Shown here: positions 3,785-29,437 of the stretch, one piece after another
Numbering within the stretch: position 1 is the stretch's first letter
Layout of the letters: every line of letters starts with the position of its first letter
Assembly: GCA_041666045.1 (NCBI GenBank)
Contig: JBAYHR010000002.1
Span: 18,773-82,772 of the forward strand
Direction of reading: 5' to 3'
DNA: 64,000 bases
Source of the DNA: Minisyncoccota bacterium
GTDB taxonomy: Bacteria; Patescibacteriota; Minisyncoccia; Phycocordibacterales; UBA9973
Position numbers and translations under genes: made by a program
Notes under the pieces: generated by a model
The model's input: the letters and a program-made list of their open reading frames with translations, nothing else
Told to the model about the DNA's origin: nothing
The model's database searches: none

Positions 3785-5785
3785 TTATAACAAGAAAGCA
3801 ACGATAAGCAAAGCTACGATGTTTAGAATTTTAATCATAGGGTTTATTGCTGGTCCGGCTGTATCTTTATAAGGATCTCCAACAGTATCACCAGTAACAG
3901 CTGCCTTGTGAGCATCTCCACCTTTACCTCCAAAGTTTCCACTTTCAATATATTTCTTAGCATTATCCCAAGCTCCACCACCAGAAGTCATAGAGATTGC
4001 TACGAATAATCCTGTGATGATTGATCCAACTAAAAGTCCACCAAGAGCAACTGGTCCAAGCAAGAATCCTACTAAGATTGGAACAAGTACCGGGATAAGA
4101 GCGGGTACAATCATTTGTTTAATAGCGCTTGTTGTAACTATATCTACGCACTTTCCGTATTCTGGTTTTCCTTCACCTGTCATAATTCCTTTTATCTCTC
4201 TAAATTGTCTGCGAACTTCGTCAACAACTTTTCCTGCAGTTTTTCCTACAGCTTCCATACAAAGCGCTCCGAAATAATATGGTAGAAGTCCTCCTATGAA
4301 TAATCCAACGATAACTTTTGGATTACTTAAATCAAATTTCATAACTTCTCCAGTGATAGCTTTTATTTCTTCTGTATATGCTGCGAACAACACAAGTGCT
4401 GCAAGTCCTGCAGAACCGATAGCATAACCTTTTGTGACAGCTTTTGTAGTATTTCCAACTGCGTCTAATGGATCCGTAACATCTCTAACTTCTTTTGGAA
4501 GTTCTGACATTTCTGCGATTCCTCCAGCATTGTCTGTGATTGGTCCATATGCGTCGATAGCTACGATGATTCCTGTCATCGAAAGCATAGACATTGCTGC
4601 TACTGCGATACCATAGAGTCCACCAAATTTATATGTAATTAAAATTCCAGTAACTATTGTTATAAGAGGAAGAGCGGTTGCTTTCATTGAGATAGCGAGT
4701 CCTTGGATAACATTTGTTCCATGTCCTGATAAAGATGCTTTGGCGATAGATTTTACTGGTGAGAATTTTGTTGAAGTAAAATATTCTGTAATAACAACAA
4801 GAGCTCCAGTTACAAAAAGACCTGTAAGGGCACAAATAAATAAATCCATTACAGAATAATCACTGCCGTTGTTAGACATTAATAATTTTGTGATAGGGTA
4901 GAAAGCTATTGCCGCAAGAATTCCTGATGCGATAAGTCCTTTGTATAGCGCGCCCATTATATTATTTTTCTTTCCTAATTTTACAAACCAAGTTCCGATG
5001 ATTGAACAAATAATTGCAATACCTCCTATTGCAAGAGGGTATAATATTGCTCCGCTGAAATTTACGAAAAGAAGTGATCCGAGTAACATTGTCGCTACAG
5101 ATGTAACAGCATATGTTTCAAAAAGATCTGCGGCCATTCCTGCGCAATCTCCAACATTGTCTCCAACATTGTCTGCTATAACTGCAGGGTTTCTTGGGTC
5201 GTCTTCTGGAATTCCAGCTTCAACTTTTCCAACAAGATCTGCTCCTACGTCAGCTGCTTTTGTAAAAATTCCTCCACCTAATCTTGCAAATACAGAAATA
5301 AGAGATGCTCCGAAACCAAGACCGATCAATGCTTTAATATCACCTGTGATTGCGTACAGTGTTGATACTCCCAAAAGAGCAAGTCCTACTACTAGAAGTC
5401 CAGTAACAACTCCTCCATTAAAAGCAACACTAAGAGCTTGCTTCAATCCACTTTTTGCGGCTTCTGTTGTTCTAACATTTGCTCTCACTGATACATTCAT
5501 TCCGATATATCCAGCGAGTGCTGAAAGTACTGCTCCTAGAATAAATCCAATAGCTGAATTAAATCCTAAACCAAACCATAAAACAAAGAAAAGAATTATA
5601 GCTATAACTCCAATAGTTTTGTATTGTCTATTTAAATAAGCTTTTGCTCCTTCTTTGATAGCTTCTGCGATAGCTTGCATTTTTGCATCACCGGCATTCT
5701 TTTTAAGAATTGATTTAGTAAGCAACAATCCATAGATGATAGCTACAATAGAACTAATAATTGCAAACAATAAATATATATTCAT
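3785..5785 (-). CDS. hppA: Membrane-bound proton-translocating pyrophosphatase (V-type H+-PPase)
   Basis: Motifs [41 protein letters not shown] and [18 protein letters not shown]. Polytopic membrane protein of 666 aa. Confidence 0.95.
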
Positions 5786-10059: not shown

Positions 10060-10812
10060 ATGTCTAAAAAAATAATTATCGGAAATTGGAAAATGAATCC
10101 TTCATCTTTAAGACAAGCTGAGGATCTTTTTAAATCTATTCAAAAAACTATATCCTATAATCTAAAAATTGATGTTGTAATTTGTCCGCCATATGTTTAT
10201 TTAGAAAGATTAAAAAAACTTTCTAAAAAGGTAGCATTAGGAGCTCAAAATGTTTCTTGGCAAGAGAAAGGTGCATTTACAGGAGAAATTTCTGCAGAAA
10301 TGTTAAAAGATATTGGAGTAAAATATGTTATTTTAGGCCATTCTGAGAGACGCGTAATGGATGAAAATAATATTGATATAAATAAAAAAACAAAAATGGC
10401 ATTTTCTTTTAATCTTATACCCATACTTTGCATTGGAGAAAAAGAAAGAGACGAGAATCACGAATATTTAAATTTTATTAAAAAACAAATAGAAGAATGT
10501 TTGGCGGGAGTAATAAAAAATTCTATTTCAAAAATAATTATTGCGTACGAGCCTGTCTGGGCAATAGGGAAAGGAGCAATTAGACAAGCAAGTCCCGAAG
10601 AATTTCGTGAGATGAGAATTTTTATTAAAAAAGTTTTAAGTGATAAATTTGGAGCGAAAATTGTTGAGAAAGTAAAAATAATTTATGGTGGTTCAGTTCA
10701 TAAAGAAAATGCGGTTGAGTTTTTGAAAGAAAATGCTGATGGTTTTCTTGTTGGAAGAGATAGTTTGGATTCAAAAAAATTTACAGAAATTATAAAGATA
10801 TGCGAAGCATAA
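10060..10812 (+). CDS. tpiA: Triosephosphate isomerase
   Basis: GNWKMN N-terminal motif, ILGHSERR, YEPVWAIGKG. Confidence 0.95.
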   Translation: MSKKIIIGNWKMNPSSLRQAEDLFKSIQKTISYNLKIDVVICPPYVYLERLKKLSKKVALGAQNVSWQEKGAFTGEISAEMLKDIGVKYVILGHSERRVMDENNIDINKKTKMAFSFNLIPILCIGEKERDENHEYLNFIKKQIEECLAGVIKNSISKIIIAYEPVWAIGKGAIRQASPEEFREMRIFIKKVLSDKFGAKIVEKVKIIYGGSVHKENAVEFLKENADGFLVGRDSLDSKKFTEIIKICEA

Positions 10813-11876
10813 AAACAATAAAAAATATAAAAGGAAAAACAGCGCTTGTTCGTGTGGATTTTAATGTACCCATTAAGGATGGAAAAGTGGAAGATGATTT
10901 TAGAATTAGAAAAGCATTACCAACGATAAATTTTTTAATAAAAAAAGGCGCGCAAATTATTTTAATAACTCATTTAGGGAAAGATGGCACAGCAAGTTTA
11001 GAGCCTGTTATTAAACATTTCTTTAAAATTTCTAAATTATCAAAGTCTAAAGTTGAATTTTTTGAAAATGTAAGAAAATTTTCAGGGGAAATGGATAATA
11101 ATGTTCATTTTGAGAGAAATCTTTCAAGATTAGGGGATTTTTATGTGAATGAGGCTTTCTCTGTTTCTCACCGCGCGCATACGTCTATAGTTGGCATACC
11201 AAAACATTTACCAAGTTATGCAGGTTTTCAAATGGAAGAAGAAATAAAAAATCTTTTAAAAGCTATTAAAAATCCCAAACATCCTTTTCTTTTTATTTTA
11301 GGAGGAGCAAAGTTTTCAACTAAAATGCCTTTGATTAAAAAATATTTAAAGCTCGCAGATTATGTTTTTATAGGTGGGGCGTTGCTTGATGATTTTCTGA
11401 AAGCTGAAGGTTTTGAAGTAGGGAAGTCTCTAGTTGATGATTCAAAAGGGATAAAAGAAATTTTAAAAAACAAAAAATTAATTCTACCCACAGATGTGGT
11501 TGTGAAAAGTGGGGATAAATTAATAAATAAAAAATCAAATGAAGTTAAAAAAGATGAAATTATTTTAGATGTCGGCACAGAATCTGTGAAATTATTGGAG
11601 CCTTTGATTAAAAAATCAAAACTTATTCTTTGGAACGGGCCACTTGGTAAATATGAAACAAAAGGAGGAGATAAAGCTACAAAAGAAATTTTAAAAACAG
11701 TTATTAAATCAAAAGCTCAAGTTATTATCGGTGGAGGTGATCTTGTAGAAGTTTTGTCTACTCTAAAAGCTAAAAGCTATAAGCTAAAACCTAACATGTT
11801 TGTTTCTACAGGAGGTGGTGCAACGTTAGATTTTCTTGCCAATGGTACACTTCCAGGAATTAAAGCGCTTGGATAA
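10800..11876 (+). CDS. pgk: Phosphoglycerate kinase (short, 358 aa)
   Basis: RVDFNVP and RIRKALPTI motifs. A Gly-rich GGGA/GGGD nucleotide-binding region. Overlaps tpiA by 13 nt. Confidence 0.88.
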   Translation: MRSIKTIKNIKGKTALVRVDFNVPIKDGKVEDDFRIRKALPTINFLIKKGAQIILITHLGKDGTASLEPVIKHFFKISKLSKSKVEFFENVRKFSGEMDNNVHFERNLSRLGDFYVNEAFSVSHRAHTSIVGIPKHLPSYAGFQMEEEIKNLLKAIKNPKHPFLFILGGAKFSTKMPLIKKYLKLADYVFIGGALLDDFLKAEGFEVGKSLVDDSKGIKEILKNKKLILPTDVVVKSGDKLINKKSNEVKKDEIILDVGTESVKLLEPLIKKSKLILWNGPLGKYETKGGDKATKEILKTVIKSKAQVIIGGGDLVEVLSTLKAKSYKLKPNMFVSTGGGATLDFLANGTLPGIKALG

Positions 11877-21320: not shown

Positions 21321-22517
21321 ATGCGCGATAAACAAATTGAAAAACTTATTAAATTAGAAGATAAAAGGCAGAAGAGTGTTATTAACCTAATAGCATCTGA
21401 GAACTATGTTTCTAAGGATGTATTACAAGCACTCGGTTCTAATCTTACAAACAAATATGCAGAAGGTTATCCTGGGAGGAGATATTATGGTGGTAATACT
21501 ATCATTGATAAGGTTGAAAATCTTTGTATAGAACGAGCTTTAAAACTTTTTAAATTAAAACCTGAAAATTGGCATGTGAATGTTCAGCTTCTCTCTGGTA
21601 GTCCTGCAAATTTTGCTTTGTATTCTGCTCTAGTTCCTGTTGGTGGAAAAATTATGGGAATGAAATTAACTTCGGGTGGGCATTTGACGCACGGGCATCC
21701 ACTTTCAATGACAGGGAAACTTTGGAAACCAATTCAATTTGAAGTTGATGCAAAAACTGAAGTTATTGATTATGAAAAATTAAAACAAATGGCAATAGCA
21801 GAAAAACCAGATATTATTGTTTGTGGTTTTACGGCTTATCCAAGATTTGTAGATTTTAAAAAGTTTAGAGAGATTGCTGATGCGGTGGTTTACCCTGACG
21901 GCAGGAAGGGAGCAATATTGCATGTAGATATGTCTCATTTTGCGGGATTGGTCGCAGGAGGAGTTTATCCATCACCATTTCAATACGCAGATACTGTGAT
22001 GACAACTACACACAAATCTCTTCGTGGACCAAGACAAGCTATTTTATTTATTAAAAAAGATGCTAGAGAGTTTGATAAAAAATTAGACAAGATGGTTATC
22101 CCAGGACTTTTTGGTGGACCGCATGAAAACAATATTGCAGGTGTCGCTATCGCTTTAAAAGAAGCAATGGCTCCAGCATTTAAAAAATACGCTAAACAAG
22201 TTATGAAAAATGCAAAAACACTAGCAAATGAATTACAAAAACTAGGTTGGCATATTATTTCTGGCGGAACTGATTCTCATTTAATATTGATGGACACATG
22301 GATGAATGGCGCTGGAGTTTCTGGAAAAGACGCAGAAAAAATGCTTGAGAAAGTAGGAATTATCGTTAATAAAAATACTATTCCTCAAGATTCTCGTGGA
22401 GTAATGGATCCTTCTGGTATTCGTCTTGGAACTTGCGCAGAAACAACAAGAGGTAAAAAAGAAAAAGATATGATAAAAATTGCACAGAAAATAGATAAGA
22501 TTTTGAGAAGTAAATAA
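21321..22517 (+). CDS. glyA: Serine hydroxymethyltransferase
   Basis: ASENYVS, TTTHKSLRGPR (PLP-lysine motif). Overall SHMT architecture. Confidence 0.95.
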   Translation: MRDKQIEKLIKLEDKRQKSVINLIASENYVSKDVLQALGSNLTNKYAEGYPGRRYYGGNTIIDKVENLCIERALKLFKLKPENWHVNVQLLSGSPANFALYSALVPVGGKIMGMKLTSGGHLTHGHPLSMTGKLWKPIQFEVDAKTEVIDYEKLKQMAIAEKPDIIVCGFTAYPRFVDFKKFREIADAVVYPDGRKGAILHVDMSHFAGLVAGGVYPSPFQYADTVMTTTHKSLRGPRQAILFIKKDAREFDKKLDKMVIPGLFGGPHENNIAGVAIALKEAMAPAFKKYAKQVMKNAKTLANELQKLGWHIISGGTDSHLILMDTWMNGAGVSGKDAEKMLEKVGIIVNKNTIPQDSRGVMDPSGIRLGTCAETTRGKKEKDMIKIAQKIDKILRSK

Positions 22518-25852: not shown

Positions 25853-28800
25853 ATGTCTGAAAATGAAAATAAATTGGCAAAATCAGAATTGGCTCAAAAA
25901 GAAGAGCGTATTTTAAGTTTTTGGAAAGAAAATAAGATTTTTGAAAAATCTTTAGAAAAAGAAGCCCCTAAAGGAAATTATGTTTTTTATGATGGTCCAC
26001 CATTTGCTACAGGAACTCCTCACTATGGTCATATATTAGGAAGTACAGCAAAAGATGTTATTGGACGTTATCAAACAATGCGTGGTTTTTGTGTTCCTCG
26101 TCGTTGGGGATGGGATTGTCATGGTTTGCCAATTGAAAATATTGTTGAAAAAGATTTAAATATTTCTGGGAAAAAAGCTATTGAAGAACTTGGCATAGAT
26201 AAATTTGTTGAACATGCTCGCAGTAAAGTTTTGACATATGTTGGCGAATGGAGAAAGACAATTGATCGTATGGGTAGATGGGTAGATTTTGATAATTCAT
26301 ATAAAACTATGGATAACACTTTTATTGAAAGTGTTTGGTGGGCGCTTGGAGAATTAAATAAAAAAGAATTACTTTACGAGGGAGTGAGAGTTCTCGCATA
26401 TTGTCCACGTTGTGAGACACCAATCGCTAATTCTGAAATTGCGATGGATAATAGTTATAAAGACATAACTGATATTTCTGTTTATGTAAAATTTAAATTA
26501 ATTAGTGAAGAAAATACATATTTACTTGCATGGACTACAACTCCTTGGACATTACCTGGCAATACTGCAATTGCGATTAATAATGAAATTAATTATATAT
26601 ATGTTTCTCATACTCCAGAAACAGGTAAAGAAATTTTAATTCTTGCAAAAGACAGATTTGATTCATTGAAAGATAAATTTACAAATCCAGAAATTATAAA
26701 AGAAGTAAAAGGGAGTGAATTAGTAGGTATGTCTTATGAGCCAGTATTTAATTATTACAAAAATACTGATTTGCCAAATAAAGAAAATATTTGGAAAGTT
26801 TGGCACGCAGATTTTGTTACTTTAGATAAAGGGACAGGAATTGCGCACGAAGCGCCTGCTTTTGGTGAAGAAGATATGGGGCTTGCTAAGGAAAATAATA
26901 TTCCATTTATTCGTCATGTTGAGCCAAATGGTGTATTTACAAAAGATGTCGCAGATTTTGCTGGGATAAAAGTTAAACCAAAAGAAGATGGTCAATCAAC
27001 AGATATTTTAATAATTAAATATTTAGCAAAAAAAGGAAAGCTTTTTTCAAAAGAAAAAATAATTCACTCATATCCACATTGTTATCGTTGTGAAACACCT
27101 TTGCTTTATTATGCTCTACCTTCTTGGTTTGTGAATATACAAAAAGTTAAAAATGATTTATTAAAAAATGCTGAGTCTATAAATTGGATTCCGTCTCATT
27201 TAAAAGAAGGACGTTTTAAAAATATAATGGAAAGTGCTCCAGATTGGACTATTTCACGAAATCGTTTTTGGGCAAGCCCATTACCTATTTGGAAATCTGA
27301 ATCTGGAAAAATAATGTTTGTGAATGGAATTGAAGATTTAAAATCAAAAGTTAAAAAATCTGGGAATAAATATTTTGCTTTTAGACACGGAGAAGCTGAA
27401 AATAATGTGAGTAAAGTTTATTTAGAAGATTTACATGGTAATGCTAATTTAACAGAGAAGGGGAAAGAACAAGTATTAGAAACTGCCAAAAATTTTAAAG
27501 AAAAAGTTGATATTATTATATCTTCTCCATTTAATAGGTCAAAACAGACTACAAAAATAATTTGTGAAGAGATTAATTTTCCATTTGAAAGTGTTATCTA
27601 TGACAAAAGAATTGAAGAATGGAAAACTAGTTCTATTTTTGAAGGGCAAGATAAAGCAATTTTTGAAAAATATTATTGTGAAGATTATTTAGATAAATTA
27701 GAGGAAGTTTTACCTAATGCTGAAAGTTTCGCACAAGTTATTAAACGTGTTGGTGATTTTATTTATGATATAGAAAATAAATATTCCGGGAAAAATATTC
27801 TTATTGTAGGACATCAAGGGGCTACAAGAGCTTTAAGTTTTTTGGTTAAAGGTTTAGCTTTTAATGATTTATCTAATAAAAATGATTTACTTATCTCTTT
27901 AAAAAATGCAGAAGTTAGAGAGTTTGATTTTGTTCCGCTTCCTCATAATCATAATTATGAATTGGATTTACATAGACCATATATAGATTCAATTGTTCTT
28001 GTTGATGAAAAAGGCGAAGAATATAAAAGAATACCAGAAGTTGTAGATTGTTGGTTTGAATCTGGGTCAATGCCTTTTGCTCAAGATCATTACCCATTTG
28101 AAAATTTAGATTGGAAGGAGAAAAATTTCCCAGCTGGTTTTGTAGCAGAATATATTGCTCAAACAAGAACTTGGTTTTATTATACTCACGCTATATCTTC
28201 AATTTTATTTAACGAAGCTCCATTTAAAAATGTGGTTACAACAGGAACTATTTTGGCGGAAGATGGACAGAAAATGTCAAAGTCAAAAAATAATTTTCCA
28301 GATCCTTGGATTTTGTTTGATAAATATGGAGTGGATGCGCTTCGTTTTTATTTAATGTTTTGTCCTGTGATGAAAGGGGAGGATATTAATTTTTCAGAAA
28401 AATCTGTTCAAGATATTTCAAATAAAATAATAAATAGATTTAATAATGTTATATCTTTTTATGAATTATATAGAGATGTAGAAGTAGAAGATATAAAGGC
28501 TAGAGTAGAAAGTAAAAATATTTTAGATCAGTGGATATTGGCTCGTTTAGATGAGCTTATTGCTCAATCAACAGATGGAATGGAAAAATATGATATGGCA
28601 CAAGCTACAAAGCCATTTGAATTATTTATTGAAGATTTATCTACTTGGTATTTACGTCGTTCTAGAGATAGGTTAAAAGATAACAATAAAGAAGCAAAGA
28701 AAGTTTTGTATTTTGTTATTAAAACTCTTGCAGTTTTGATGGCACCATTTACTCCTTTTATATCAGAAGATATATGGCAGAAATTTAAAAAGGAAGGTGA

Positions 28801-29332
28801 TTTAGAAAGTATTCATTTGAGTAATTGGCCAGAATCTAATGAGATAAATTATGAAGTAATAGAAAATATGGAGCAAACTAGAAAAGTAGTTTCATTAGGG
28901 CTTGAAGCTCGTCAGAAAGCTGGATTGAAAGTGAGACAACCATTAAGTAAATTACGAATTAAAAATTACGAATTAGGAATTGAATACACAGAACTAATTA
29001 AGGACGAGTTAAATGTTAAAGAAATAGAAGAAGATAAAAATATTGAAACTGAAGTTGTTTTAGATGTAGAAATTACTCCAGAGTTAAAAATAGAAGGAGA
29101 TTATCGTGAACTTATCCGTGCTATTCAAGATATGCGTAAGAAAGCTCTATTAACGCCAAGTGATGTTATTTCTTTAATTATTGAAGCAAACGATGAAGCT
29201 AAAAAATTAATTCAAAAATTTGAAACTGAAATAAAGAAAATTGTTCTTGCTTCAGAAATAGAATTCAAAAATAATAATGGACAAGAAATTAAAATAGACG
29301 AACTTGTATTTAAAATAGAAATAATAAAATAA
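25853..29332 (+). CDS. ileS: Isoleucyl-tRNA synthetase (type-2-like) with an inserted histidine-phosphatase-like domain (aa ~495-697)
   Basis: PHYGH (HIGH), WTISRNRFWASPLPIW, LHRPYID, KMSKS, editing-domain TTTPWTLPGN. The insertion carries RHGE...SSPFNRSKQT...LIVGHQGATRAL. Confidence 0.9.
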   Translation: MSENENKLAKSELAQKEERILSFWKENKIFEKSLEKEAPKGNYVFYDGPPFATGTPHYGHILGSTAKDVIGRYQTMRGFCVPRRWGWDCHGLPIENIVEKDLNISGKKAIEELGIDKFVEHARSKVLTYVGEWRKTIDRMGRWVDFDNSYKTMDNTFIESVWWALGELNKKELLYEGVRVLAYCPRCETPIANSEIAMDNSYKDITDISVYVKFKLISEENTYLLAWTTTPWTLPGNTAIAINNEINYIYVSHTPETGKEILILAKDRFDSLKDKFTNPEIIKEVKGSELVGMSYEPVFNYYKNTDLPNKENIWKVWHADFVTLDKGTGIAHEAPAFGEEDMGLAKENNIPFIRHVEPNGVFTKDVADFAGIKVKPKEDGQSTDILIIKYLAKKGKLFSKEKIIHSYPHCYRCETPLLYYALPSWFVNIQKVKNDLLKNAESINWIPSHLKEGRFKNIMESAPDWTISRNRFWASPLPIWKSESGKIMFVNGIEDLKSKVKKSGNKYFAFRHGEAENNVSKVYLEDLHGNANLTEKGKEQVLETAKNFKEKVDIIISSPFNRSKQTTKIICEEINFPFESVIYDKRIEEWKTSSIFEGQDKAIFEKYYCEDYLDKLEEVLPNAESFAQVIKRVGDFIYDIENKYSGKNILIVGHQGATRALSFLVKGLAFNDLSNKNDLLISLKNAEVREFDFVPLPHNHNYELDLHRPYIDSIVLVDEKGEEYKRIPEVVDCWFESGSMPFAQDHYPFENLDWKEKNFPAGFVAEYIAQTRTWFYYTHAISSILFNEAPFKNVVTTGTILAEDGQKMSKSKNNFPDPWILFDKYGVDALRFYLMFCPVMKGEDINFSEKSVQDISNKIINRFNNVISFYELYRDVEVEDIKARVESKNILDQWILARLDELIAQSTDGMEKYDMAQATKPFELFIEDLSTWYLRRSRDRLKDNNKEAKKVLYFVIKTLAVLMAPFTPFISEDIWQKFKKEGDLESIHLSNWPESNEINYEVIENMEQTRKVVSLGLEARQKAGLKVRQPLSKLRIKNYELGIEYTELIKDELNVKEIEEDKNIETEVVLDVEITPELKIEGDYRELIRAIQDMRKKALLTPSDVISLIIEANDEAKKLIQKFETEIKKIVLASEIEFKNNNGQEIKIDELVFKIEIIK

Positions 29333-29437
29333 AATTAACCTTGAGATAAAAAACCTTAGAAAAAGGCAATCCTATTGCAACTATTGATGATTCTAGGGAT
29401 TTATTGCAAACAATTCAGAGTGTGTTAAAATAACATT

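What the first reader, a model, noticed from the sequence alone, without database searches (positions are those of the whole stretch)
27335..27945. Histidine-phosphatase (PGAM/CobC-like) domain inserted in the catalytic core of isoleucyl-tRNA synthetase
The IleRS segment between WTISRNRFWASPLPIW and LHRPYID is normally a few dozen residues. Here it is about 200 aa. The insert carries the branch-1 histidine-phosphatase signatures FAFRHGEAENN (RHG motif), SSPFNRSKQT and LIVGHQGATRAL (second catalytic His). An aaRS-embedded phosphatase domain is not something I recognise from known IleRS architectures. It suggests an added activity, for example on a nucleotide or an RNA-end phosphate.
Basis: partly seen in the sequence, partly recalled or inferred. 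Interest (0 to 1): 0.6.

Follow-up and report, generated by a model that had tools for sequence, protein, structure and literature searches.

The report
Phosphatase domain nested inside IleRS
The housekeeping isoleucyl-tRNA synthetase of this ultra-small (CPR/Paceibacterota) bacterium, like that of many related species, carries a complete and apparently active histidine-phosphatase enzyme spliced into a surface loop of its catalytic domain, a conserved two-enzymes-in-one architecture that the literature I could search does not describe and whose substrate is unknown.

Summary
ORF 25853..29332 (+, 1159 aa) is a type-2 IleRS (TIGR00392, 865 bits). A ~190-aa branch-1 histidine-phosphatase domain (Pfam His_Phos_1 aa 510-674, E=6.6e-26) interrupts the second half of its Rossmann/HUP fold. 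Solved type-2 IleRS has ~22 residues there, and one close natural variant (P0273) has ~12.

It is not a one-off.
- At least 130 clusters at 50% identity show the same junction-insert-junction.
- 119 of the 120 nearest full-length relatives carry it.
- All 80 best species-genome loci carry it, all Patescibacteria of the Parcubacteria type, at a conserved ArgRS-IleRS-RecO locus.

The phosphatase catalytic residues (R511, H512, R562, E589, E624, H654) are as invariant as the IleRS core motifs, while the rest of the insert evolves fast. An MSA-based AlphaFold model is confident (pLDDT 93.5).

Relatives carry 2-4 copies, or copies in two other IleRS loops, and some add GNAT or P-loop-kinase modules.

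The domain is PhoE/PspA/CobC-like and is not a dPGM mutase.

Best reading: a bifunctional enzyme with an active phosphomonoesterase module. The substrate is unknown. A small molecule such as a nucleotide is most likely, and action on the tRNA end or on a phosphoprotein is not excluded. I found no description in the searchable literature.

The parts
25853..29332 (+). Complete IleRS gene (1159 aa, type 2 / eukaryote-like), with the phosphatase domain nested inside
   Evidence: ORF list. TIGR00392 ileS scores 865.3 bits against a cut-off of 621.4. Best solved relatives are type-2 IleRS 8c8u/8c9d, 1ile and 8wnd. The exact protein is on record as MFA6524215.1 from a Ca. Paceibacterota MAG.
25853..27358 (+). 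N-terminal part of IleRS: first half of the Rossmann/HUP fold with the HIGH-type motif HYGH (aa 57-60, nt 26021-26032), the CP1/editing domain (WTTTPWT aa 227-233; GTGIAHEAP aa 327-335), CP2, the DWTISRNRFWASPLPIW motif (aa 464-480), and a beta-hairpin plus helix up to ...KSKVKK
   Evidence: Pfam tRNA-synt_1 aa 20-505 matches profile positions 2-272 of 414. These motifs are invariant in the 108-sequence family alignment. Model pLDDT is above 90.
27359..27931 (+). Inserted branch-1 histidine-phosphatase domain (aa ~503-693; Pfam core aa 510-674 = nt 27380-27874), PhoE/PspA/CobC-like
   Evidence: His_Phos_1 E=6.6e-26. Boundaries come from comparison with the insert-less relative P0273 and with 8c8u. 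The family profile's best PDB hits are PhoE 1EBB/1H2E (E=5e-33), PspA 4IJ5 and CobC 6NRU. Model pLDDT is 85-97, with strands at 506-511, 554-557, 648-653 and 688-691.
27383..27388 (+). Arg511-His512 of the RHG motif (predicted phospho-accepting histidine)
   Evidence: R and H are present in 120/120 site-1 family members and in 161/161 domains when the extra copies are included.
27536..27538 (+). Arg562 (second phosphate-binding arginine, motif SSPFNR)
   Evidence: 120/120.
27617..27619 (+). Glu589 (predicted general acid/base)
   Evidence: E in 112 and D in 7 of 120; 150 E and 10 D of 161.
27722..27724 (+). Glu624 of the 'GES' motif
   Evidence: 120/120.
27812..27814 (+). His654 (second catalytic histidine, motif VGHQG)
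   Evidence: 120/120 and 161/161.
27932..29332 (+). C-terminal part of IleRS: PLPHN..LHRPYID junction (aa 695-712), amino-acid-pocket motif DCWFESGSMPF (732-742), EYIAQTRTWFY (766-776), KMSKS (807-811, nt 28271-28285), anticodon-binding domain (892-1032) and C-terminal DUF5915-type domain
   Evidence: Pfam second tRNA-synt_1 stretch, tRNA-synt_1g 792-867, Anticodon_1 892-1032 and DUF5915 1066-1157. 8c8u aligns to 483-860.

Best explanation
This is the housekeeping type-2 isoleucyl-tRNA synthetase of a Paceibacterota (Parcubacteria-type CPR) bacterium. A complete PhoE/PspA/CobC-like histidine phosphatase has been nested into a surface loop of the second half of its Rossmann (HUP) catalytic fold. 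By position this loop is the small excursion that structural papers call CP3 (inference). The protein is a two-active-site enzyme. The IleRS framework (HIGH-type motif, KMSKS, editing motifs, anticodon domains) is intact and charges tRNA-Ile. The inserted module folds on its own and hydrolyses a phosphomonoester through a phospho-His512 intermediate, using Arg511/Arg562/His654 to hold the phosphate and Glu589 as acid/base. Shown here: the architecture, its boundaries, the confident fold, its wide and ancient conservation, the near-absolute retention of the insert, and invariance of the catalytic residues. Inferred: that it is catalytically active. More weakly inferred: that it acts autonomously on a small phospho-substrate, most plausibly a nucleotide such as the AMP released by the synthetase or another small phospho-metabolite, rather than on tRNA or protein. 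On this view IleRS serves as an essential carrier that fixes the activity in a minimal genome.
For: Architecture. Fold: AF2 with a 108-sequence MSA gives pLDDT 93.5 and pTM 0.87, with the insert at 85-97; the IleRS framework matches type-2 IleRS with TM 0.82-0.92. Breadth: exhaustive profile search gives 501 hits at E<=1e-30, and about 130 of the top 150 cluster representatives match junction+insert+junction in one stretch at aa ~430-830 of ~1150-1200-aa proteins. All 80 best species-representative loci are Patescibacteria (Nomurabacteria, Paceibacterota, Taylorbacteria, Zambryskiibacteriota, RAAC4_OD1_1), with the domain always inside a long IleRS ORF. 119/120 nearest relatives have PF00300. 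Housekeeping status: conserved ArgRS-IleRS-RecO synteny in ~60/80 loci, and no second IleRS in the window. Active enzyme: R511, H512, R562, E624 and H654 in 120/120 and E589 as E/D in 119/120, although insert identity is only 24-53%; every copy in multi-copy proteins keeps the set, with one E-to-Q exception at position 624 in P0087 copy 1. Small-substrate leaning: the insert evolves much faster than the core (43% vs 74% identity among close relatives), only active-site positions are fixed, and net charge is slightly negative. Tandem and multi-site copies (2-4 per protein) are hard to reconcile with one cis-acting site on a bound tRNA. The closest solved relative is the broad-specificity phosphatase PhoE. 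Separable module: the natural variant P0273 lacks exactly the insert and keeps an intact IleRS frame.
Against: No activity was measured. The substrate is not identified by any test here. If IleRS were a mere carrier, other large essential proteins might carry the domain too. Yet His_Phos domains have entered or persisted in three different IleRS loops, while ArgRS and MetRS of the same window have none. That hints at a specific functional tie to IleRS which the 'autonomous passenger' view does not explain. An AMP-directed nucleotidase next to an ATP-consuming enzyme has no obvious benefit. Some relatives add a P-loop kinase or GNAT modules, which could point to RNA-end or aminoacyl-tRNA/inhibitor chemistry instead.
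Confidence: 0.5

Rival explanations
1. The embedded phosphatase works on the tRNA that IleRS binds. It would remove a 2'-, 3'- or pyro-phosphate from the 3' CCA end (or act on the 5' phosphate) of damaged or toxin-modified tRNA-Ile, so that repair and charging happen on one enzyme.
For: The insert sits in the catalytic domain, and two of the three insertion sites are loops of the second half of the HUP fold. The association is specific to IleRS within this window. One relative (P0099) adds a P-loop kinase module whose weak PDB matches include Pnkp1 (E=0.059), giving a kinase+phosphatase pair reminiscent of RNA end-healing. NCBIfam has a precedent for a nucleic-acid enzyme fused to a CobC-like phosphatase (PRK07238, RNase H/acid phosphatase; 61.8 bits to the insert).
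Against: The insert surface is poorly conserved and slightly acidic, with no sign of an RNA-binding face. Proteins with 2-4 copies, or copies at a site next to the anticodon-binding domain, do not fit one cis-acting site. The kinase match is as good to APS and shikimate kinases. To my knowledge no histidine phosphatase is known as an RNA-end phosphatase. The insert-less variant P0273 exists.
Confidence: 0.15
2. It is a protein phosphatase or regulatory module. It would dephosphorylate IleRS itself or a partner, for example countering a HipA-like toxin kinase that targets synthetase active sites, or it would tune IleRS activity by binding a phospho-ligand.
For: Branch-1 histidine phosphatases include protein phosphatases (SixA, PGAM5, Sts-1; general knowledge), and there is a weak SixA model hit (30 bits). 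The insert lies in the same half of the fold as the KMSKS loop. GNAT and kinase add-ons in relatives are also typical protein-modifying enzymes.
Against: No kinase partner or toxin gene is conserved next to the gene; the neighbourhood is housekeeping. There are no PADLOC defence-system hits. The closest relatives are small-molecule phosphatases (PhoE, PspA, CobC), not SixA. No conserved interface is evident on the insert.
Confidence: 0.1
3. It is the 'missing' glycolytic phosphoglycerate mutase of Parcubacteria. It would be a dPGM-type mutase converting the 3-phosphoglycerate made by PGK (encoded in this window), hidden from pathway surveys because it lies inside IleRS.
For: PGM is reported absent from several shallow Parcubacteria clades (PMC7304191). 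The window encodes TIM and PGK with no PGM beside them. The domain belongs to the same superfamily as dPGM.
Against: All dPGM equivalog models score far below their cut-offs (for example TIGR01258 39 vs 81.7, NF010713 29.6 vs 305). dPGM structures align only to the N-terminal half of the family profile. At the positions where dPGMs have substrate-binding Arg/Tyr after the catalytic Glu and Asn after the second His (positions recalled from established dPGM literature), the family has I/L/V, F/V/L and G-D-P, the phosphatase-type pattern. The characterised PhoE-like proteins I know of are phosphatases, not mutases.
Confidence: 0.07
4. The domain is catalytically silent and serves as a structural or ligand-sensing spacer replacing the small CP3/zinc-knuckle excursion of other IleRS.
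For: The insert replaces a short, variable excursion. The window protein has no Cys in this region, whereas (from memory) T. thermophilus IleRS binds zinc there. The surface evolves fast.
Against: A spacer would not keep the nucleophile His, both Arg, the second His and the acid/base Glu invariant over sequences only 24-53% identical. P0273 shows that a 12-residue linker suffices structurally.
Confidence: 0.06

Closest known systems
Type-2 (eukaryote-like, mupirocin-resistant) IleRS, e.g. Priestia megaterium IleRS2 (PDB 8C8U/8C9D) and Thermus thermophilus IleRS (1ILE)
   Same: Same enzyme family and domain order (HUP/Rossmann fold split by CP1/editing and CP2, anticodon-binding domain, type-2 C-terminal domains). 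E=1e-220 by sequence and TM 0.82-0.92 by structure. HIGH-type, KMSKS and editing motifs are present.
   Different: About 190 extra residues forming a histidine-phosphatase domain stand where these enzymes have ~22 residues. The window's subclade also has EYIAQTRTWF instead of EG.DQTRGWF. A 2026 survey of ~96,000 IleRS domain architectures does not mention such an insert.
PhoE broad-specificity phosphatase of Geobacillus stearothermophilus (1EBB/1H2E), with PspA phosphoserine phosphatase (4IJ5) and CobC alpha-ribazole phosphatase (6NRU/6E4B)
   Same: These are the best solved relatives of the insert family (E=5e-33 to 3e-26 over the whole ~170-residue core). They share the RHG...R...E...H catalytic set and the 'LrEi.fG.feG' motif.
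   Different: Those are free-standing ~200-aa enzymes. Here the domain is nested in another enzyme. It reaches none of the NCBIfam equivalog cut-offs for CobC (67.6 vs 162.9), PspA (57.7 vs 350) or the others, so no specific substrate can be transferred.
NCBIfam NF040702 'ileS_w_GNAT' (IleRS containing an N-acetyltransferase domain)
   Same: A precedent that bacterial IleRS can host an extra enzyme domain. A relative found here (P0159) has GNAT modules and the His_Phos insert in one IleRS.
   Different: The window protein has no GNAT domain and scores 314.9 against a cut-off of 1999. The nested enzyme is a phosphatase. I found no paper on either architecture.
Bifunctional RNase H / acid phosphatase (PRK07238, Rv2228c-type) and PFKFB kinase/bisphosphatase
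   Same: Known fusions of a branch-1 histidine phosphatase with another enzyme. The insert matches the phosphatase half of PRK07238 (61.8 bits). PFKFB bisphosphatase domains match the family profile (E about 1e-15 to 1e-16).
   Different: Those are end-to-end fusions, not a domain nested inside the partner's catalytic fold, and neither partner is a tRNA synthetase.

Membership tests
Isoleucyl-tRNA synthetase (TIGR00392 ileS; type 2) | Whole-protein score above the curated equivalog cut-off | tested here: met
   865.3 bits against a cut-off of 621.4, despite the insert splitting the match.
Isoleucyl-tRNA synthetase (TIGR00392 ileS; type 2) | Class I signature motifs HIGH and KMSKS | tested here: met
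   HYGH at aa 57-60 and KMSKS at aa 807-811. K807, S809 and K810 are invariant in 108 relatives.
Isoleucyl-tRNA synthetase (TIGR00392 ileS; type 2) | CP1 editing domain with Thr-rich and GTG.(V/A)H...D motifs | tested here: met
   WTTTPWT at 227-233 and GTGIAHEAPAFGEED from 327. W227-P231, H332 and D341 are invariant.
Isoleucyl-tRNA synthetase (TIGR00392 ileS; type 2) | Canonical active-site motif EG.DQTRGWF | tested here: not met
   The window and its subclade have EYIAQTRTWF (G to Y, D to A, G to T). 44/50 more distant family members keep D. The consequence for catalysis is unknown. The enzyme is still the only IleRS seen at the conserved locus.
Isoleucyl-tRNA synthetase (TIGR00392 ileS; type 2) | Type-2 C-terminal organisation (no zinc-binding domain; ARD2/ARD3-type domains) | tested here: met
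   DUF5915 hit at 1066-1157. The best sequence and structure matches are all type-2 IleRS, while type-1 enzymes score much lower.
Isoleucyl-tRNA synthetase (TIGR00392 ileS; type 2) | Aminoacylation of tRNA-Ile | not testable with these tools
   Needs an enzyme assay.
Histidine phosphatase superfamily, branch 1 (Pfam PF00300) | Profile match above the gathering threshold | tested here: met
   91.6 bits against 21.7, E=6.6e-26, profile positions 4-167 of 194.
Histidine phosphatase superfamily, branch 1 (Pfam PF00300) | Catalytic core: RHG histidine nucleophile, two arginines, second histidine, acidic proton donor | tested here: met
   R511, H512, R562, H654 and E589 are present in the window. 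Across 120 family representatives the first four are invariant and E589 is E/D in 119. Across all 161 domains R511, H512 and H654 are invariant and E589 is E/D in 160.
Histidine phosphatase superfamily, branch 1 (Pfam PF00300) | Alpha/beta fold of the domain | tested here: inconclusive
Histidine phosphatase superfamily, branch 1 (Pfam PF00300) | Phosphomonoesterase activity via a phospho-histidine intermediate | not testable with these tools
   Needs an enzyme assay with an H512A control.
Cofactor-dependent phosphoglycerate mutase (dPGM) | Equivalog/subfamily score above cut-off | tested here: not met
   TIGR01258 39 vs 81.7; NF010713 29.6 vs 305; NF038349 65.9 vs 225.
Cofactor-dependent phosphoglycerate mutase (dPGM) | Mutase-specific substrate-binding residues (Arg/Tyr after the catalytic Glu; Asn after the second His; extra segment with Lys/Arg-Arg) | tested here: not met
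   The family has I/L/V at 590, F/V/L at 592 and G-D-P at 655-657. dPGM structures align only to profile positions ~7-110. The dPGM residue identities are from established literature, recalled and not re-derived here.
CobC alpha-ribazole phosphatase (TIGR03162) / PspA phosphoserine phosphatase (NF045917) | Equivalog score above cut-off | tested here: not met
   67.6 vs 162.9 and 57.7 vs 350 for the insert alone. It resembles these families but cannot be filed as a member of either.
ileS_w_GNAT (NF040702) | Score above cut-off and presence of a GNAT domain | tested here: not met
   314.9 vs 1999, and no acetyltransferase Pfam hit in the window protein.
Known anti-phage defence proteins (PADLOC) | Any model hit | tested here: not met
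   0 families for the insert or for the whole protein.

The most novel reading that the evidence does not exclude
The phosphatase is functionally coupled to the synthetase: it clears a phosphate block from tRNA-Ile (a 2'/3'-phosphate or a toxin-added pyrophosphate on the CCA end), from IleRS itself (toxin-kinase phosphorylation), or from a phosphorylated IleRS-directed inhibitor. IleRS in these episymbiotic bacteria would then be a platform for built-in repair or counter-defence enzymes, with the phosphatase universal and GNAT and P-loop kinase modules added in some lineages. This would be a new kind of quality-control or immunity function embedded in an aminoacyl-tRNA synthetase.
Probability: 0.2. 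Interest if true: 0.85.

Novelty: new variant of a known kind. Interest (0 to 1): 0.62.

Why it matters
Aminoacyl-tRNA synthetases are among the most conserved enzymes known. Bacterial synthetases carrying an additional, catalytically intact enzyme nested inside the catalytic fold are very unusual.

Here the feature is retained across a whole major lineage of CPR bacteria: 119 of 120 nearest relatives carry it, the catalytic residues are invariant, and copies occur in three different loops. That implies strong selection for a second activity on the IleRS scaffold in organisms with minimal genomes.

Finding the substrate could reveal a missing metabolic step or a new link between translation and phosphate, nucleotide or RNA-end chemistry in these uncultivated episymbionts.

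There is also a practical side. NCBI's pipeline names these proteins only 'class I tRNA ligase family protein', and gene-level pathway annotation will overlook the phosphatase. Both IleRS and a phosphatase activity can therefore be mis-scored in genome surveys of CPR bacteria.

The natural insert-less variant (P0273) gives a ready-made design for a deletion control.

Tried and rejected
1. Single-sequence AlphaFold model: useless (pLDDT 32). It was replaced by an MSA-based model.

2. The first word-indexed homologue search found only 9 hits and suggested rarity. The exhaustive profile search showed this was a sensitivity artefact.

3. 'A downstream HAD phosphatase replaces the His_Phos insert': suggested by the insert-less P0273 locus and by a HAD relic in the window. 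Rejected because the HAD gene also follows insert-bearing IleRS in at least 7 loci.

4. 'Missing dPGM': rejected on equivalog scores and mutase-specific residues.

5. Defence-system link: no PADLOC hits.

6. Origin of the site-2 and site-3 copies (intragenic duplication or independent capture): pairwise identities are saturated at ~30-40% for all comparisons, including free-standing homologues, so this is unresolved.

7. RNA-binding surface: net charge is slightly negative, so no support.

8. Nucleotide-metabolism neighbours (NUDIX, dNK/Tmk-like, dUTPase): adjacent in only 7-34 of 80 loci, whereas ArgRS-IleRS-RecO is the conserved core. This gives no functional clue.

9. Free-standing His_Phos genes in 1.16 Mb of related DNA: none. 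The sample is all IleRS neighbourhoods, so this is uninformative genome-wide.

10. Accessory kinase and GNAT modules of P0099 and P0159 against the PDB: only weak, generic matches.

11. Rfam and tRNA scans of the window: nothing.

12. The diverse 28-sequence alignment was too divergent for locus search, so a tighter alignment was used.

14. Hosts of the variants P0159 and P0120 could not be named.

15. Ten literature searches found no description of an IleRS with a histidine-phosphatase domain.
Full report
**1. What is in the sequence**

The interval given (27335-27945) lies inside one uninterrupted ORF, 25853..29332 on the + strand, 1159 aa. It corresponds to residues 495-698.

Pfam gives the predicted picture:
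- tRNA-synt_1 in two stretches, the first covering aa 20-505 (profile positions 2-272 of 414);
- His_Phos_1 at 510-674 (E=6.6e-26, 91.6 bits against a gathering score of 21.7);
- then tRNA-synt_1g, Anticodon_1 (892-1032) and DUF5915.

NCBIfam calls the whole protein ileS (TIGR00392, 865 bits, cut-off 621). The insert alone matches CobC, archaeal dPGM, PspA and the phosphatase half of an RNase H/acid-phosphatase fusion, all far below their cut-offs.

Against the closest solved structure, the type-2 IleRS of Priestia megaterium (8c8u, E=1e-220), query residues 484-701 correspond to chain residues 461-483. So about 217 residues stand where about 22 are normal. GC and GC3 of the insert resemble the rest of the gene.

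**2. Source and context**

The exact protein is on record from a 108-kb JGI metagenome contig and as NCBI MFA6524215.1, 'MAG: class I tRNA ligase family protein [Candidatus Paceibacterota bacterium]'. NCBI taxonomy now files that name under phylum Minisyncoccota.

The window is low-GC (~30%) housekeeping DNA. It encodes ClpP, trigger factor, H+-pyrophosphatase, NusA, TIM, PGK, RecJ, RNase H, ComEC, SHMT, NUDIX, a dNK/Tmk-like kinase, dUTPase, ArgRS, IleRS, RecO, a class II synthetase, MetRS, TatD, S6, SSB, RecA, FtsK and sugar-nucleotide enzymes.

There is no second IleRS and no other His_Phos gene in the window. ArgRS and MetRS carry no insert. Rfam and tRNA scans found nothing.

**3. It is a large, old family, not a one-off**

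A first word-indexed search found only a few fragments with the same junctions. The exhaustive profile search against 1.84 billion cluster representatives gave a very different picture. There were 501 hits at E<=1e-30, and the best 150 were almost all proteins of ~1150-1200 aa in which junction, insert and junction match in one stretch at residues ~430-830. I classified 133 domains as insertions at the window's site.

The insert of these representatives is only 24-53% identical to the window's (median 33%), and its length is constant (193-227 aa for the segment 500-712).

The 80 best all cover the query end to end including the IleRS junctions, and all are Patescibacteria: Nomurabacteria, Paceibacterota/Paceibacteria, Minisyncoccia, Taylorbacteria, Zambryskiibacteriota, the closed genome RAAC4_OD1_1, and some records labelled Saccharibacteria whose labels I could not verify. 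In all these loci the His_Phos match lies inside an ORF of at least 600 aa. The order ArgRS-IleRS-RecO-(642-aa gene) is conserved in about 60 of 80 loci, so this is the resident housekeeping gene.

Of the 120 best full-length relatives (63-77% identical), 119 have PF00300.

**4. A natural deletion variant**

The one exception, P0273 (989 aa, a 4.8-kb ENA scaffold), is 86% identical to the window protein before the insert and 68% after it. It reads ...GIEDLKLKTKKNKNGE|INLPLNAKGELDLHRPYID, so about 12 residues replace residues 495-694 and the IleRS frame stays intact. This fixes the insert boundaries at about aa 503-693 (nt 27359-27931) and shows that the module is separable.

P0273 is a singleton: its 119 nearest relatives all carry the insert. 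Loss is therefore rare and has left no detectable clade. The unequal identity of its two halves leaves open recombination or a chimeric assembly.

Its downstream HAD-family gene suggested a replacement phosphatase, and a relic of that gene's last 27 codons lies in the window at 29350-29430. However, the HAD gene also follows insert-bearing IleRS in at least seven loci, so I rejected that idea.

**5. The phosphatase looks active**

In 120 family representatives, R511, H512, S558, R562, E624 and H654 are invariant, and E589 is E in 112 and D in 7. That matches the conservation of the IleRS core residues W465, R469, W473, D712, D732 and W734. The same holds in the 108-sequence full-length alignment and over all 161 domains once extra copies are included.

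Meanwhile the insert as a whole evolves much faster than the synthetase (43% vs 74% mean pairwise identity among close relatives), and it is slightly acidic. This is the signature of an enzyme whose active site, but little else, is constrained.

The family profile is closest to the broad-specificity phosphatase PhoE (1EBB/1H2E, E=5e-33), then PspA (4IJ5) and CobC (6NRU, 6E4B). dPGM mutases align only over the N-terminal half.

**6. Structure**

The single-sequence model failed (pLDDT 32). With a 108-sequence alignment the model has mean pLDDT 93.5 and pTM 0.87. The insert scores 85-97 and shows the expected alternation of strands (506-511 carrying RHG, 554-557, 648-653, 688-691) and helices.

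The whole model matches type-2 IleRS structures with TM 0.82-0.92 normalised to the target (8c9d, 8wnd, 1ile), so the synthetase framework is undisturbed.

By position the insertion lies in the second half of the HUP/Rossmann fold, after the W.ISR.R.WG.P.P.W motif and before the amino-acid-pocket motif D.WF.SG. Structural papers list a CP3 connective peptide for IleRS (PMC11685878; domain scheme in bioRxiv 10.64898/2026.02.03.703510). Equating site 1 with CP3 is my inference.

**7. Variants**

Mapping onto the insert-less P0273 shows three distinct host loops:
- Site 1 is after P0273 residue ~495-510. This is the window's site.
- Site 3 is after ~558-570, just before the FPA(D/G)F...QTR.WF strand. 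It occurs in P0109, P0149, P0087 and P0159.
- Site 2 is after ~684-702, at the start of the anticodon-binding domain. It occurs in P0120 alone, and in P0065, P0109, P0149 and P0080 together with another copy.

Some proteins have tandem copies in site 1 (P0097, P0105, P0123, P0134), and P0116 has four domains. Every copy keeps the catalytic set, with one E-to-Q exception. Whether the extra copies arose by duplication or by separate capture cannot be resolved, because all identities are saturated at 30-40%.

Two relatives add other enzymes. P0159 has GNAT acetyltransferase modules in the CP1 region and at site 3 besides His_Phos at site 1; its host has ~57% GC and contigs up to 2.1 Mb. P0099 has a P-loop kinase (AAA_18/AAA_33) at site 3. 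Their PDB matches are weak and generic. NCBIfam already has an 'ileS_w_GNAT' model, so IleRS hosting an extra enzyme has a curated precedent, but I found no paper on it.

**8. What it does**

Shown: a housekeeping IleRS with an intact synthetase framework and a nested histidine-phosphatase domain that is independently folded, strongly retained and catalytically complete.

Inferred: it is a bifunctional enzyme with an active phosphomonoesterase.

The substrate is not determined.
- *Small molecule (favoured).* The reasons are the fast-evolving, non-basic surface, the multi-copy and multi-site variants and the kinship to PhoE. A nucleotide such as the AMP made by the synthetase is a natural but unproven candidate.
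- *Pyrophosphate.* This is unlikely to be the point, because the window encodes an H+-pyrophosphatase.
- *Missing glycolytic mutase.* PGM is reported missing in some Parcubacteria (PMC7304191), but this fails on equivalog scores and on mutase-specific residues.
- *Coupled functions.* A tRNA-end phosphatase, a protein phosphatase or a counter-toxin role are not excluded. They gain some plausibility from the specificity for IleRS, the three independent host loops and the kinase and GNAT add-ons. No direct evidence supports them, and there is no defence-system similarity.

**9. Novelty**

Both component families are well known, and the architecture is visible in public databases (precomputed PF00133+PF00300; a UniRef entry from a 2015 Parcubacteria genome appears among the hits). 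Ten full-text searches found no description of it. These included a 2026 survey of ~96,000 IleRS domain architectures that mentions neither a phosphatase nor Patescibacteria.

I rate it a new variant of a known kind: a synthetase with a nested accessory enzyme. It is real and lineage-wide, and the substrate is an open and testable question.

Noticed in passing
window 29350-29430 (+), between the IleRS stop and the next ORF: Relic of the last 27 codons (67% identity, E=2e-6) of a HAD-family hydrolase gene. That gene directly follows, and overlaps the stop of, IleRS in L082 and follows IleRS in at least 7 other related loci. In the window the gene has been lost, and lineage-specific genes (a 250-aa unknown, an alpha/beta hydrolase, an MBL-fold protein) sit between IleRS and RecO.
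   Followed up: yes
window 28148-28177 (IleRS aa 766-775): The conserved class Ia active-site motif EG.DQTRGWF reads EYIAQTRTWF (G to Y, D to A, G to T). The change is fixed in the window's subclade (57-58 of 58 close relatives, and also the insert-less P0273), while 44/50 more distant family members keep the canonical Asp. A remodelled nucleotide-binding motif in a housekeeping IleRS deserves a look of its own.
   Followed up: partly
family alignment A4 (relatives of window IleRS aa 57-60): 21 of 108 relatives have the non-canonical HIGH variant G-x-H-H instead of H-x-G-H. This is the signature reported to give type-2 IleRS hyper-resistance to mupirocin (PMC10485003; bioRxiv 10.64898/2026.02.03.703510). 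The window itself has HYGH.
   Followed up: partly
L083:6001-10686 (P0159, 1561 aa) and P0099 (1395 aa): These IleRS proteins combine the His_Phos insert with other nested enzymes. P0159 has GNAT acetyltransferase modules (aa ~281-413 in the CP1/editing region and ~965-1000 at site 3). P0099 has a P-loop kinase-like module (AAA_18/AAA_33, aa 746-869). P0159's host has ~57% GC and contigs up to 2.1 Mb, unlike typical small low-GC Paceibacteria, and it could not be named.
   Followed up: partly
L082:448-3417 (P0273): This is the only insert-less close relative. Its N-terminal half is 86% identical to the window protein and its C-terminal half 68%, on a single 4.8-kb scaffold. It is either a real rare deletion or recombinant, or a chimeric assembly joined across the divergent insert.
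   Followed up: partly
relatives P0065, P0109, P0149, P0097, P0080, P0105, P0099, P0159, P0121 versus the window C-terminal region (aa ~1040-1070): These relatives have an extra 45-71 residues after P0273 position ~888-897. The window matches only the second half of DUF5915 (profile positions 100-192). This is consistent with the optional 'INS' subdomain of type-2 IleRS being absent from the window's subclade and present in others.
   Followed up: no
window 10060-10812 and 10800-11876 (+); 3785-5785 (-); 21321-22517 (+): The TIM and PGK genes overlap by 13 nt and no phosphoglycerate mutase or enolase lies next to them. A membrane H+-pyrophosphatase and serine hydroxymethyltransferase are also encoded. 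This is relevant background for guesses about the phosphatase's substrate.
   Followed up: partly
database annotation of window 25853-29332 and relatives: NCBI names most of these proteins 'class I tRNA ligase family protein' rather than isoleucine--tRNA ligase, although they pass the TIGR00392 cut-off here. Automated surveys may therefore score IleRS as missing or ambiguous in these genomes and will not report the phosphatase.
   Followed up: no
tool behaviour (vs 23): The word-indexed homologue search with the 252-aa insert segment returned only 9 hits and missed the query's own database entry. The exhaustive HMM search found hundreds of family members. Rarity inferred from the first tool alone would have been wrong.
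   Followed up: yes
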